A stretch of 64,000 nt of DNA from the NCBI GenBank assembly GCA_030141605.1, contig JAQGDQ010000007.1:124001-188000 (forward strand). Direction: 5' to 3'. Origin of the DNA: Tubiluchus corallicola (lineage: Eukaryota; Animalia; Priapulida). The position numbers and the translations under genes were made by a program. The number at the start of each line of letters is the position of its first letter. The stretch's first letter is position 1. Shown in pieces: positions 34,289-40,200 of this stretch. Below the pieces are notes generated by a model that was given only the letters and a program-made list of their open reading frames with translations, did no database searches and had not been told where the DNA came from.

Positions 34289-37200
34289 TCATTTCATCTT
34301 CAGGTTACGGAGTAATTCGGTAGCTTCCCTGTTAGCCTGAAGACAAAAGAAAAGTTATATTGTTTGCTCAGATTCTACAGTAATATACAGTATTTGCAAA
34401 CTTCTTTGGAATATAATCCCACAATTATACAAATTTTGAGACCAAACATTGAAAAAACCAGAAATGTGGAAAAGTTTGCACACAGCCATGATTTGAACCA
34501 GAGACATTCTGTTTGGTTTACAAATTCAATCAACTAAGAGTCTTTACCATCAAAACACGACATGTTTGAGCATGCTCTTGAAAACAAGATAGCATTGCCA
34601 CAGTAAATATACAGTTGTAAAAACGGCATTTTGGTTTAATGTGTAAAATATTTTTAACTGACAAATCTGTAATTGAATTCACATTTTTGTAAGTGTTAAT
34701 GTGAATTAAATTTTACTTACCGATTTGTCAGTTGAGAATAAACAGAGTCTTTTGAACAAGTCATTATTGACTTAACAGTATAATGCCGGATTTTGTCGAC
34801 AAGATGTAAAAAATTCAATACGTTTTTCTCATGATAATAACTTGAGAAATGTATATGTCAAACATTTCATCCCAACTTACAACTTTGTCATCTTCTGTAA
34901 TGACTCTGTGGTTGCTGGCTTTGTTTAGGTAAACAGCAGCCGTCTCGTTATCTCCCAATCTCAGGTAAGTCTTGCCCAACATGAGCAAATTCATGCTATA
35001 GAAGTTTGGATCAACTAAAATAAACAAAAACTTCGACTAATCAAACGTTCTTTTATGGCTACACAGAAGCCCAGAAATACTAAATTAATTTTGGGGGTAG
35101 GAAAAACTGATAGATCCTTGACTGGATCTACAGGTAAGAACACATAGCACTGAGATGGAAACTACAAATTGCAAACAGGACAACAATACCATTATTTCAC
35201 ACGGAAGCTTCAACATTTAAATACTATCATCATGCAACTCCAATGCACTGTCAGCATTAAAGTAGATTAGTGTTGATTTTTTAAAACAAGAAAACATAAA
35301 GATCACCTTTCTCTGCGTCCAGGAAATATTGCAAGGCTTCTTCGTAAGTAGCAGTGGGAGGTGTTGCAAACAGAATCGAGGCGATCTTTCGTTGATACCA
35401 TGGCATATCAGCAAAAACATAGCACCTGGAAAAATGAACAACATTGTATGAAATGTTTCAGGTTAGACTTTAGAAAATATTACAAGTACATGATGCAGTT
35501 TTCATCCAGTAGCTTGATAATGTGACCAACATTGCAAGATCTTTTACCACAAAATAACAACATCTAATTAATAAAGACTATGAATAAAAGCCTAGAGCCT
35601 CACATCAGTTCACATTACAAATGAAAATTTAGACTAAAGTCACAGCCTGACTGAACACTTTTTATAGTATTTGACCGTAGGTATTAATTAAGCATACAAC
35701 ATAAAACGACATGAAATTAACAAGGAGAATAAAAATTACCACAGATAATTAATAGGAATTGTATATGAATAATCTATAGCTCATCTAAGGCAAACTCTCG
35801 CAAACAAGCCAGATGAGAATAATTTTTTGTAGAACAATCAGTACTAGTCACAAACAGTGTGATATTCTAACGTACCTTCACAAGTGTAATTTAACATGAC
35901 ACAAGGCCTGAAATGGTAACATTTCTATATGTTTCCTGTGCAAAGAAACAAAAACTAGTCTGAAGAGGTGCTGGGTCAAGTGAAGAAATTAACCAATGAT
36001 CTCCCAGGCAGAACGCACAAATGTAACCGACGGAGAAGCGAGGAACATAGGTGTCTAGTATGAGCTTTTGAGAAATTATTGTATATAAAATTAACTTAAT
36101 CTAGTTGCACTTTCACATTCTACTCACCAATATCCCAGAGAATGGATAGACGTGGCATCATGTGGATTTAATTCAACGGCTTTCTGTAACATGGAAAAAA
36201 TATTGTTAACAGGACTGCATAGTAAATAGTTTACTTACGAGTTGCTGTAATATGGTAGTACCACCTAGACCAGAAAAGCAAAGTGGCTTAACGGGTTAAA
36301 AAACAATAAGAAACTTAGAAAGCACACTTTTTTGGGAAAAGTACACAGTAATAAACTGACAAAAAGGACACTGCCTTGCATTGTGCTTTTATAAATTTCC
36401 TTGAATCAGAAAAAGTTTTCAATGATCCATTGCCTGTCAAGGTTTAGGCTTGTGGACAAATAAGCTAATGCAACATTTAGACCACAAAATTCATTCAAAT
36501 ACTGAATTGCTACTTTACAACAACTATTAAAAGTTTACTAGTGTTTGCAAAGCTTTCACAGTTCATGCATTAATCTAATTATTAAGGACGAATGTTATCA
36601 ACACAGCACACAATTTTTAGATCTTTATGTGATCACGCAGTAAAGCAACACCTTCATTTACTAAAACCAATTCAATGCATCAAATGTAACTACCGAAAGA
36701 AATGAAAAGTATGATTTTTCAAGTAAGACAACTTAATAGGTATGTTTTTAAAAATAATGTTATGATCACAATAAAGTTACTTTTATAATATTATGCAAAA
36801 CATGATTCTTCATATTTACACACAACTACAAAAAATAGCCAAAGATATGAAAATAACATAAATAAACATTCCACATTACTGTTAATTTAAACCATGACAT
36901 CATCCTAAACTTCACTTAAACAACTTAAATATTTTACTTCATATTTTACTTACGAGCAGGTGATCCTTGACCTTGAAGGAATTTTTAATCCTGTATTTAG
37001 TGGTTTCATATCTGCCAGTGTAGTCAAGTAATATCGCATACCACTGTGCAAAGATAGAAGCATGCAAAGTACATTAACTATTAATTAGTCATGCTGAAAG
37101 GACATCAAACGCTCACAGAAAAATAGACTTGCACACGATGTTGATTTTTATCAGAAATGATGTTTAGAAGCCACTGTGAAAAGAGAATATTATGCCATAG

Positions 37201-40200
37201 ATTGGAAACTAGAACCCTTCTCCAAATGATGGAGCTACACATAATGTTATGAGTTATTTGCAAAATTTACAATTCATAAATACAAATTGACCTTATTTTA
37301 TAGCACAACACGCTCAGTATAATGTGCAAGAACTACAATAAAAGTATACCCATTTAAACAAAATCAAAACCAAGTCTGTTTTTCTTGTGAGTTTTTCATG
37401 AATATTCATGTATATTACACGAGAAACAGATTTCAGCATTATGCTACTGTATCTATTAAGTGATCTTGAGCCTATGATACACAAAAGCATCCAGCATCTG
37501 GCTGCCAGCATTCAGCATTTGGTTGCTAGCTTCTAGTGTCCAATGTTCTTTGTTCACTGGGTTAAAGTCTGGCATCTATGTTTCTCAAAGGAAAACAAAA
37601 TGGACGACAATCAAATTTATTTTTGCAAAGCTTTCTTTTTTTCAGTGATTGCCACAACAATTCGCAAACCCATGTCGTCATTGAATGGTTGAGGAATAGA
37701 CCTTGGATAATAAACATTTACAAAATAGGAACAGTTTCTACTTTCAAGTGCCTGGCTTCCAGCATTTGCTGCCAAAATCTTTGGCTTTATCTCTCATTGG
37801 AAATATACACGTTTTAGTTCTCGCTTTGGTGTATCATAATAATAAGGTGGAAATTGTTTACAGCAAGCATCTGCATGCTAATGTATGTGCCACATTTTTA
37901 GTTATCTATATAAATTGAGTTAACAGTATTGTTAAATTTCAGAAAACAAGGTTAGATGCCATGCAAATAAAAGGTTACACGTCAGTTTGTGATAACTGAT
38001 AAGCTAAATATTGTGAGCACTTTTTAATTTGTACTGGCAAATAAAAACATGCTCTTGTGCATTTATTTCACAACATATGTCATAAAGTTCTGCAAAACTG
38101 TAGCACTAGTGAATGGAGTTATTAGTAATAACTGCTTATTTTAGCATGCACTAACAAGGTAACAACAAAAACTCACTAAGAAATGATCTCGAACGCGGTA
38201 GGCATTTCCAATCCGAATTTTGAAGCCATCATATACACCAACATAATCAATAAGAGCTGCATACCACTAACATGTAAGAACAAGAAGAAACTATAAAATG
38301 TAGATGCTAGTCATGTGATAAAATGAAACATTCTATAATACTGCACTGCAAATGAAGTAAAAAAGAGCAACAGTAAAAAGAAGGAAGAGCATATCATTAC
38401 CAAAAAGAGAGATAAACCAATCTTTTAGAGAAAGGAAAGAAACAAAAGACAGCTGAGAAAAAAGAACGTGCCACAATGACAAGGAAAATGGAAGAACATT
38501 TCACTGATAAGGAGAAATGAAGAAGATCCAGTTGTTGTCAGAAAAGGAAATATGAAAAAACTGCTTGCAACAAAAAGTAAAACAATGAAAGAAAATCATT
38601 GCTGAGAAGAAGTGAAAAATACTTTATCGCTTTTACTTGAAAACCCGCCGAACAAAATTTTGTAAGAAACGACGTAATCAACACTAACATTTGTAACACA
38701 GCAGCTGTTACTTGTCTGATGAACATTTGCAATAAATAGCTGCAAATGTATCGCTGAAACTAAAACAAAATTTTCTGGCAAAAATAAATACTATGCATCT
38801 GCTGATTATCTGCTTATTCATCTGCTGATTATTTATGAACTGTCCCAAACCATTTTAACTGACTAGTACAATTTCCGACGTTGCGTTCAAAAATGGTGGT
38901 GTGATAAGCACATAAAAGCAGATTCTCCTTCCAAGCATGTTGCTTGGCAACCTGGTACTACAAATGCATTATTCTACTGCAAATGATAAAAGGTATTTGT
39001 TTCCCAGTCGTCAACTGTTAGCAATGTACAGAGCAGTCTAGAAAAACACTGCAATACAAATATTCTGATATGCATATTTTAGAATTTCCAAAAACGATAT
39101 ATTGTAGAAAAAGTTGAGTTAAGCAAATACGGTAGTCACTGCTTAATAACACTGCCAAGGGATAAGCTTAATGGCAGTTTGATTATTGGGTGGCCTATTG
39201 CAAGCGTGTGTATTTTGCAAAATACAGTATGTAACTGCTTTACCCTAATTAATATATACTACGCACATATACACAAGTTGTTCACCAATGTTAACTAAGT
39301 GAACAACTTTTATTTTCGACATCGGTTCTGCAAAAAACACACATTGGCTCTCAATTTTAACTGCAAAGAAGTTACTCATTTTTGTAACCAAAGCATTATT
39401 TTGATTTATTTTATAACATAATTCTTGTCGTACAAAAGCTTGCTTATAAGCTCAAGCAAACAGAGGGCCATCAGCTCATATGTCAACAGAATGACATGCA
39501 AAGTAGGTGGTTACAATGGAACAATCGAGTTTAACTTTCAGTGTGACTTTGACTAAGCAGAGGTGAATCCAGCAAGCGTGACTTAAATTTCAACTGCGTA
39601 CCTTGAAAAATAGGCAAACTGCCAAAAATACTTTTTATTTTTTTCATTTTACTGTTGCTCTTGTTACCTATTAGTGAAAAATAATTGATCTCATTGAACG
39701 GTGCACTGGTTTTATTACCGAAGTTTTCTCAACAACAGTTTCGATGAGAGTAATTCCATGTGGTGTTCTAAATGGTTCTAAAATGCACCTGGTTTTATTA
39801 AATGGTGACTACTGTACATTATTTTTACATCATTATATACATCATAATATTCATAATGCATCCAAGCTGATAAATTAAAGCAAAAAGTTTTTTGTAGCAT
39901 GCAGTATTACTCCTGTATGTCTTTTTGTTGGATTCACCTCTTCTTAGTCAAAGTCACACTAAAGTTAAAGTCAATTGTTCCATCGTAACTGCCTACTTCA
40001 CACGTCATTCTGTTGACATGCTACTTAACAGGCGATCACAGTTCACTGAAATATTATCAGAATATTTCAGCAGATCTGCATATTGATATATCTGCACTGT
40101 TATTTCTGGGACACCCTGTACAGTCTATGCATTACCAATTTATACTGAGATTGATCACTGAGCTCATTTAGCAAAAAGCCATCCAGGATGGGAAGCAAAA

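What the first reader, a model, noticed from the sequence alone, without database searches (positions are those of the whole stretch)
36954..38266. Tandemly duplicated, probably mutually exclusive exon pair in RMDN1
Seen: two 90-nt phase-0 exons with good splice sites encode the same segment (A: WYAALIDYVGVYDGFKIRIGNAYRVRDHFL; B: WYAILLDYTGRYETTKYRIKNSFKVKDHLL). 16 of 30 residues are identical, several changes are conservative (I/L, D/E, A/S, Y/F, R/K twice), 9 of the 16 identical residues use different codons, and the flanking introns show no obvious similarity. This suggests an old duplication with both copies under purifying selection. Using one copy gives 313 aa, about the length of vertebrate RMDN1 as I recall it, where this segment is single. 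Inference: alternative isoforms swap part of the TPR-like helical domain and may differ in partner or lipid binding. I know of no described mutually exclusive exons in RMDN1. Neither exon appears in the ORF track.
Basis: partly seen in the sequence, partly recalled or inferred. Interest (0 to 1): 0.82.

Follow-up and report, generated by a model that had tools for sequence, protein, structure and literature searches.

The report
Swappable exon pair in priapulid RMDN1
The gene for the mitochondrial protein RMDN1 in this animal (likely a priapulid worm) carries two intact, diverged copies of one 30-residue exon, the same pair stands in database gene models of the worm Priapulus, and the gene likely splices in mostly one copy at a time to make two proteins predicted to differ in the wall of their binding groove.

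Summary
Observation confirmed in every number. Priapulus caudatus RefSeq models carry the same pair: A-only, B-only, A+B and neither. A groups with Priapulus A (95/98); separate duplications are rejected (p-AU 0.008), so the pair is old and both copies are conserved. B is the ancestral-type copy, spliced alone in a transcript-sized contig of a close relative; A is derived. The exon is single in 20 of 20 spanning animal loci; no arthropod or nematode was sampled. Alone, A folds into helices 5-6 of a PTPIP51-like TPR domain; A+B leaves 31 residues unplaced. Both A copies have Ala where 103 of 103 outgroup segments have Ile/Val, at a likely groove-facing site. Short intron, minor spliceosome and NMD do not explain exclusion. 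Likely switch, untested: a pyrimidine tract and a long-range helix silence A; Rbfox-type motifs favour A and block B. Against strict exclusion: the Priapulus A+B and skip models; no RNA of this species was available. A new gene for a known kind of splicing. The scan had no earlier RMDN1 finding.

The parts
46647..46760 (-). RMDN1 coding exon 1 (ATG; Arg-rich, mitochondrial-presequence-like by inspection)
   Evidence: gene model; matches N-terminus of relative P0001
46031..46148 (-). exon 2 (ends in a hydrophobic stretch)
   Evidence: P0001
42469..42569 (-). exon 3
41429..41590 (-). exon 4, common upstream exon
   Evidence: Pfam PF21033 positions 39-87, E 0.0053
40559..40622 (-). U arm of a predicted long-range RNA helix (core 40599-40622)
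   Evidence: prediction only
38347..38596 (-). long pyrimidine-rich tract upstream of exon A (73% C+T, 26 TCTT/CTCT/TTCT words); candidate PTB-type silencer
   Evidence: the other 8 acceptors have 0-8 such words
38308..38315 (-). 8-mer 49 nt upstream of acceptor A, shared with B; candidate branch region
38177..38266 (-). exon A, derived copy, 90 nt
   Evidence: 19 of 30 identical to Priapulus A; tree
38145..38150 (-). TGCATG 27 nt after donor A; further (T)GCATG start at 38052, 37965 and 37878; candidate Rbfox enhancers of A
37879..37941 (-). M arm of the predicted helix (core 37879-37902); pairing with U would loop out exon A
   Evidence: prediction only
37061..37094 (-). GCATG at -51 (abutting a CTAAT branch-like site and the shared 8-mer) and TGCATG at -23 of acceptor B; candidate Rbfox silencers of B
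36954..37043 (-). exon B, ancestral-type copy, 90 nt
   Evidence: 22 of 30 identical to Priapulus B, 28 of 30 to relative P0001
36227..36264 (-). possible deleted remnant of a third, B-like copy (B-like 5' end next to a 12-nt exact match to B's donor)
   Evidence: found by eye, then scored
36128..36183 (-). exon 6, common downstream exon
35307..35425 (-). exon 7
   Evidence: PF21033 positions 138-175, E 3.6e-5
34881..35014 (-). exon 8
   Evidence: TPR_8 E 0.00074
34289..34336 (-). exon 9 with stop codon

Best explanation
RMDN1 here carries an old tandem duplicate of its fifth coding exon, shared with Priapulus caudatus, and the two copies are likely spliced mostly one at a time, with the ancestral-type copy B likely the default and the derived copy A likely a regulated alternative. 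Shown: the anatomy, the orthology of A with A and B with B, conservation of both copies, B-only splicing in a close relative's assembled contig. Inferred (about 0.35 as a whole): A is held off by a 250-nt pyrimidine tract and by a roughly 45-bp long-range RNA helix that would loop it out; in cells with an Rbfox protein (muscle or nerve in other animals) binding after A would favour A while binding on B's branch and pyrimidine region would block B. Such a switch can leak, which would explain the A+B and skip models. Predicted outcome: two 313-aa proteins that differ in helices 5-6 of the TPR domain; A has Ala for a conserved Ile/Val at a likely groove-facing site and a hydrophobic instead of acidic or basic helix turn, so it would bind a different lipid or partner.
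For: Priapulus RefSeq models X3 (A only, XP_014679400.1), X4 (B only, XP_014679408.1), X1/X2 (both), X5 (neither). Identities: A-A 19/30, B-B 22/30, cross pairs 15/30 and 14/30; neither differs from the backbone rate 140/198 (Fisher p 0.40, 0.83). Exon tree of 26 rows: A+A 95/98, B+B+B 90/81; holding the window's A and B together is rejected, p-AU 0.008. A-shared states rare in 103 distinct outgroup segments: Ala4 0, Phe15 1, Ile17 1; Glu13 (97 of 103) lost in both. pS 0.68, pN 0.37 between copies. P0001, a 312-aa B-only protein on a 1343-nt Logan contig, 93% identical in the backbone. AlphaFold of Priapulus A-only: pLDDT 94-98 over the exon, 12 helices, top PDB match 7CC7 (E 5.4e-12, TM 0.90); A+B: residues 159-189 under 50. 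GCATG 6 times in the 1133-nt A-B intron, shuffle mean 1.97, P 0.011. Helix -33.5 kcal/mol, reached by 0 of 150 shuffles and exceeded by 2 of 79 other same-size region pairs; opposite strand -21.9. RBFOX repression through an upstream UGCAUG in egl-15 exon 5B: PMC3585155, passages.
Against: Three of five Priapulus models include both copies or neither; if RefSeq built them from spliced reads (my recollection of its practice), A>B and skip junctions occur. No transcript with A was seen from this species or its close relative. None of the structural locks applies: intron 1133 nt, ordinary GT-AG sites, 90-nt exons, and no competing helix around B (best -17.3 against shuffle median -19.4). The regulatory elements were found after looking, in one genome, with no conservation test: five motif sets were counted, TGCATG alone gives P 0.081, and only two G-U positions favour the transcribed strand. 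The tree rests on 30 columns, and A copies are long branches that can attract. The A+B model used an alignment in which the other rows have one exon. Groove-facing position comes from a TPR register, not from coordinates. Human RMDN1 is reported in the intermembrane space, unlike RMDN3 (bioRxiv 10.64898/2026.04.03.716438, passages), so RMDN3's lipid-transfer role may not carry over.
Confidence: 0.7

Rival explanations
1. A and B are two independent cassette exons; A+B and skip forms are routine products, and the extra 30 residues act as an inserted loop or an inactivating switch.
For: Priapulus models X1, X2 (A+B) and X5 (neither); all four paths keep the frame; no steric, minor-spliceosome, NMD or competing-helix lock.
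Against: Both copies keep the same helix-packing residues, as expected if each fills the same slot. The A+B model leaves 31 residues unplaced; the skip form loses most of two helices and drops from 101-113 to 70 bits on PF21033. The relative's contig has one copy.
Confidence: 0.2
2. The pair is alternatively spliced as proposed, but the helix and the GCATG cluster are chance; other factors choose the exon.
For: Post hoc discovery; modest statistics (P 0.011 before correction for five motif sets; 2 of 79 control pairs hold a stronger helix); inverted repeats of transposon origin are present in the same intron; an arm pair of 60 nt could be two old repeat fragments.
Against: Each arm is found only at its partner's site in the window at up to 3 mismatches; the 24-bp core is fully paired on the transcribed strand through two G-U pairs and extends collinearly by a second helix; the motifs sit where Rbfox position rules predict one coherent switch.
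Confidence: 0.45
3. Exon A is a pseudo-exon in this species: once used, now silent and decaying.
For: A is more diverged from outgroups (mean 16 of 30 against 19 of 30 for B), has the weaker branch-like site and a silencer-like tract; no A transcript seen here.
Against: Open frame, exact length, both splice sites, 19 of 30 identity with Priapulus A over a distance similar to mammal-lungfish in the same tree; in the exon tree the window's A has the short end branch.
Confidence: 0.06
4. The two copies arose separately in the window's lineage and in Priapulus and look alike by convergence or long-branch attraction.
For: Only 30 columns; Priapulus A is flagged as a long branch.
Against: Three shared states nearly absent from 103 outgroup segments, same order A then B in both species, no position where the two copies of a species share a species-specific state, AU test p 0.008.
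Confidence: 0.05

Closest known systems
Tandem exon duplication-derived substitutions (catalogue of 236 human cases; PMC8373072, passages read and supplement searched)
   Same: Homologous tandem exons of equal length that swap one protein segment and are conserved over long times.
   Different: No RMDN gene is in that paper's text or its one held supplement; vertebrate RMDN1 has one copy. Exclusion is not measured here.
C. elegans egl-15 exons 5A/5B and unc-32 exons 7a/7b, RBFOX-controlled (PMC3585155, passages)
   Same: Two-exon choice in an ecdysozoan with UGCAUG elements; repression of an exon by UGCAUG in its upstream intron.
   Different: There the control is shown by genetics and binding assays; here only motif positions. 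In unc-32 the element lies after the second exon, here between the exons.
Human ATE1 exons 7a/7b (PMC7797038, passages) and docking-site/selector or bidirectional pairing models (PMC6071210, part 1 of 5 read)
   Same: An element between two duplicated exons pairs over a long distance with the upstream intron.
   Different: ATE1 has two competing helices on a shared element; here only one helix (around A) passes the controls, and it does not cover a splice site.
RMDN3/PTPIP51 TPR domain, PDB 7CC7 (commentary PMC10243591, part 1 of 2 read; PMC11811300, passages)
   Same: Same 12-helix fold (TM 0.90); TPR2 and TPR3 are described as forming a channel-like cavity with lipid binding and transfer in vitro; the swapped exon covers helices 5-6, TPR3 by my count.
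   Different: A paralogue at 28% identity with FFAT tether on the outer membrane; lipid binding was not found reported for RMDN1 in my searches, and the commentary notes missing negative controls.
Priapulus caudatus RMDN1-like RefSeq isoforms X1-X5 (XP_014679387.1 to XP_014679415.1)
   Same: Orthologous A and B copies in the same order.
   Different: Automatic predictions without comment; they also include both-copy and no-copy forms; about 71% backbone identity, so another species.

Membership tests
RMDN family (Pfam PF21033) | Profile score above the curated cut-off (26.7 bits) | tested here: met
   P0001 113.3, Priapulus A-only 101.2, B-only 112.8 bits. The window's joined protein was not scanned; its exons 4 and 7 alone match below the cut-off.
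RMDN family (Pfam PF21033) | 12-helix TPR-like fold of PTPIP51 | tested here: met
   Model of Priapulus A-only form: 12 helices, top hit 7CC7, E 5.4e-12.
RMDN1 orthologue (not RMDN2/3) | About 300-330 aa, short N-terminus, nearest to RMDN1 | tested here: inconclusive
   313 aa; every hit with a family name among the 120 listed is RMDN1 or 'regulator of microtubule dynamics'; 28% to RMDN3; RMDN2/3 were not put in the tree.
Mutually exclusive tandem exons | Adjacent homologous exons of equal length and phase with valid splice sites | tested here: met
Mutually exclusive tandem exons | Both copies conserved across species | tested here: met
   (one other species has both; the close relative shows B only)
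Mutually exclusive tandem exons | Each copy is spliced alone | tested here: inconclusive
   B: contig of a relative (P0001) and Priapulus X4. A: Priapulus model X3 only. No RNA for this species.
Mutually exclusive tandem exons | Double inclusion and double skipping are rare | not testable with these tools
   No reads; Priapulus models X1, X2, X5 show such forms without abundance.
Steric, U2/U12 or NMD-enforced exclusion | Very short intron, or mixed spliceosome sites, or frame-shifting double inclusion | tested here: not met
   Intron 1133 nt; donors GTATGC, GTGAGT, GTAAGT (U12 consensus recalled, not matched); A+B in frame.
Docking-site/selector or bidirectional RNA pairing | Two competing helices, one per exon | tested here: not met
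   Only the helix around A passes; best around B -17.3, weaker than shuffle median.
Docking-site/selector or bidirectional RNA pairing | Conservation with compensatory changes | not testable with these tools
   No genome of this or a related species held.
RBFOX-controlled exon switch | (U)GCAUG downstream of the activated exon and upstream of the repressed one | tested here: met
   4 sites within 300 nt after A, 2 within 51 nt before B, none within 60 nt before any other acceptor of the gene; enrichment modest.
RBFOX-controlled exon switch | Dependence on RBFOX binding, tissue bias | not testable with these tools
   Needs RNA and experiments.

The most novel reading that the evidence does not exclude
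Priapulids evolved a second, muscle- or nerve-specific RMDN1 by exon duplication hundreds of millions of years ago; an Rbfox switch working against a long-range RNA helix selects it, and its Ile-to-Ala change and hydrophobic helix turn widen and retune the lipid channel. The A/B pair would then be a natural experiment that marks the specificity residues of the RMDN TPR cavity, which are unknown for human RMDN1 and PTPIP51.
Probability: 0.2. Interest if true: 0.62.

Novelty: new member of a known kind. Interest (0 to 1): 0.42.

Why it matters
RMDN1 is a conserved mitochondrial protein with little known biochemistry. Two long-conserved versions of one wall of its TPR groove point to a few residues that likely set what it binds, and these can be tested in the solved paralogue PTPIP51. 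The case adds a gene family to those with duplicated swap exons and offers a shared derived character that may help define priapulid relationships. The kind of splicing is common, the lineage is narrow as far as sampled, and function is untested, so interest is moderate.

Tried and rejected
No whole genome is held, so no genome-wide repeat or paralogue check. No RNA holder listed; run X2 laid nothing and X1 behaves as DNA contigs with no splice joints; X1 covers exon A with no listed difference but also leaves the M arm uncovered: uninformative. A search with the Priapulus A region found 2 candidates, both Priapulus: low sensitivity. The phmmer search with exon B gave 14 hits, 2 unrelated. A crude score label 'A-type' also flagged many deuterostome segments; rejected, since they form their own branch. 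P0010 (Acipenser) has two identical copies plus a repeated downstream piece and is flagged as contamination: taken as an annotation artefact. Cluster listing is a weak test for alternative isoforms, because Priapulus X3 and X4 themselves fall in separate clusters. A loose helix search ran away without bound and was replaced. Candidate helices around B (37915-37937 with 36868-36890; 37495-37545 with 36480-36520), over A's acceptor and over exon A were no better than controls or than the opposite strand. The careful backbone tree did not finish; the quick tree is cited. The ESM Atlas on the neighbouring asteroid-like gene did not help with the organism. The original PTPIP51 structure paper is not held, so cavity residues were not read. 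The skip form and the window's own isoforms were not folded. No complex was predicted.
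Full report
Observation. The two 90-nt segments are at the stated places on the minus strand, each between AG and GT, in phase 0. They share 16 of 30 residues and 50 of 90 nt, and 9 of the 16 shared residues use different codons. Each finds the other at E 2.5e-9; nothing else in the window is better than E 0.049. 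A nine-exon model from 46760 to 34289 gives 313 aa with one copy, 343 with both and 283 with neither, all in frame. Nei-Gojobori between the copies gives pS 0.68 and pN 0.37, dN/dS about 0.29 on 30 codons with dS near saturation.

Gene and organism. Exon 4 finds 6 proteins among 49 candidates: four Priapulus caudatus RMDN1-like isoforms and two unnamed Logan proteins. One, P0001, is a 312-aa protein on a 1343-nt contig, so most likely a spliced transcript; it is 184 of 198 identical to the window's backbone and has B alone. With the exon removed, the backbone is 140 of 198 identical to Priapulus, 124 of 190 to the next row, and joins Priapulus at SH-aLRT 95 in a quick tree of 45 rows. The animal is likely a priapulid other than P. 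caudatus, but no other ecdysozoan was in the set. The path from the window to Priapulus (1.08) is close to lemur-lungfish (0.98, summed from the same tree), which suggests a deep split if rates are alike.

The pair is shared with Priapulus. RefSeq lists five models: X1 and X2 with both copies, X3 with the first, X4 with the second, X5 with neither. Identities are A-A 19, B-B 22, and 15 and 14 across, of 30; neither orthologous value differs from the backbone rate. In a 26-row tree of the exon, the A copies pair at 95/98 and the B copies at 90/81; forcing the window's A and B together is rejected at p-AU 0.008. The alignment is short and Priapulus A is a long branch. Among 103 distinct outgroup segments, position 4 is Ile or Val in 103, while both A copies have Ala; Phe15 and Ile17 of both A copies occur once each; Glu13 (97 of 103) is lost in both; position 11 is acidic in 99 of 103, Arg in all B copies and Val or Phe in A. 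B is closer to the spiralian-like outgroups (19 against 16 and 13 of 30), so B is the ancestral-type copy.

Range. Of 38 metagenome loci found with B-type patterns, 20 span exon 4 to exon 6 as genomic DNA and all 20 have one copy; 16 of them are one closely related group; 2 loci are spliced; none of the 38 has two exon-like hits. Of the 135 proteins held, two copies occur only in Priapulus X1, X2 and one flagged Acipenser record with identical copies. Of 111 listed members (of 215) in ten clusters, 105 have one segment, 6 are fragments without it, and none has an alternative. Only the best 120 of 789 hits were seen; arthropods, nematodes and other ecdysozoans were not among the named rows, so the pair may reach wider.

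Protein. AlphaFold of Priapulus X3 (A only, 72-row alignment) gives 12 helices with pLDDT 94-98 over the exon, which covers the end of helix 5 (145-161), the turn and most of helix 6 (164-184). Its best PDB match is the PTPIP51 TPR domain 7CC7 (E 5.4e-12, TM 0.90, 28% identity). A commentary describes 12 helices, a channel formed by TPR2 and TPR3, and lipid transfer in vitro (PMC10243591, part 1 of 2); helices 5-6 as TPR3 is my count. Using the TPR consensus from memory and the Pfam TPR_17 match at P0001 149-177, exon position 4 is TPR position 9, one of the concave-face ligand positions (PMC1261162, passages). The other A-specific changes cluster at the helix turn. The A+B model leaves residues 159-189 below pLDDT 50, with the caveat that nearly all alignment rows have one exon. 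The skip form scores 70 bits on PF21033 against 101-113 for single-copy forms. Human RMDN1 is mapped to the intermembrane space (bioRxiv 10.64898/2026.04.03.716438, passages; its supplements are closed), so its ligand may differ from that of RMDN3.

How the choice may be made. The A-B intron is 1133 nt, all sites are ordinary GT-AG, and both-or-none keeps the frame, so the three simple locks listed in PMC6071210 (part 1 of 5) do not apply. Three features stand out. First, the 250 nt from -330 to -81 of acceptor A are 73% pyrimidine with 26 TCTT/CTCT/TTCT words; 0.35% of 2550 windows reach that count and the other eight acceptors have 0-8. Second, 40599-40622 and 37879-37902 form 24 contiguous pairs on the transcribed strand, two of them G-U, extended by a collinear helix to 40559 and 37941. 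In my approximate model it scores -33.5 kcal/mol; 0 of 150 shuffles reach it, 2 of 79 other same-size region pairs exceed it (one through the inverted repeat in the same intron), and the opposite strand gives -21.9. It would loop out A. No matching helix surrounds B. Third, GCATG occurs 6 times in the A-B intron (shuffle mean 1.97, P 0.011; TGCATG 3, P 0.081; five motif sets counted): four within 300 nt after A and two at -51 and -23 of B's acceptor. By the Rbfox position rule (upstream repression read in PMC3585155 passages; downstream activation recalled) these would favour A and block B. The simplest model is B by default and A where Rbfox is present. All three features were found after looking, in one genome.

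Against. No RNA of this species was listed, so use of A here is unshown. I give 0.7 to mostly one-at-a-time use of two functional copies, 0.2 to independent cassettes, 0.06 to a dead A, and about 0.35 to the specific switch.

Novelty. Full-text searches for RMDN1 with 'mutually exclusive' (4 papers, listing; one read by passages), for the gene's full name with duplication terms (1 paper, listing), and for priapulids with exon terms (0 papers; 15 of 345 listed) showed no description of this pair; the human catalogue PMC8373072 names no RMDN gene in text or held supplement. Subscription papers were not searched. The pair is already implicit in automatic RefSeq models. The scan has 311 findings with similar words and none with RMDN1, and no look-alike stretch. 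Verdict: a real, old, so far priapulid-limited exon pair; a new member of a known kind; interest 0.42.

Noticed in passing
window 36227-36264, minus strand: A short stretch 54 nt before exon 6 looks like exon B's 5' end set next to a 12-nt exact copy of B's donor region (score 40; best of 162 control segments 33). It may be a deleted third copy or a 26-nt frame-shifting cassette.
   Followed up: partly
window 39480-39575 and 39925-40019: Long inverted repeat (about 98 nt, 86-92% complementary) around 350 nt, MITE-like, in the intron before A; many contigs of run X1 match here.
   Followed up: partly
window 41721-41858: Long (TTA)n/(TTG)n trinucleotide microsatellite in intron 3.
   Followed up: no
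window 55736-58027, plus strand: 763-aa single open frame of an asteroid homolog 1 (XPG-type nuclease fold) gene.
   Followed up: partly
window 19025-19378, plus strand: Exon of an enoyl-CoA hydratase/isomerase gene (PF00378, E 1.4e-6), ECI2-like by my reading.
   Followed up: no
window 3378-12966, plus strand: Multi-exon gene with coiled-coil and DUF3736 pieces, GSE1-like by my reading; a reverse-transcriptase-tail-like frame at 6044-6703 lies in an intron.
   Followed up: no
PMC12324277, colocalisation table: Human RMDN1 splice junction 8:86480332-86486484 colocalises with an LDL-cholesterol signal. From recall only, it may skip the exon homologous to A/B; not verified.
   Followed up: no
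L038:780-833: A metagenome locus in which the homologous exon matches for only its first part and then breaks off, possibly by an insertion.
   Followed up: no
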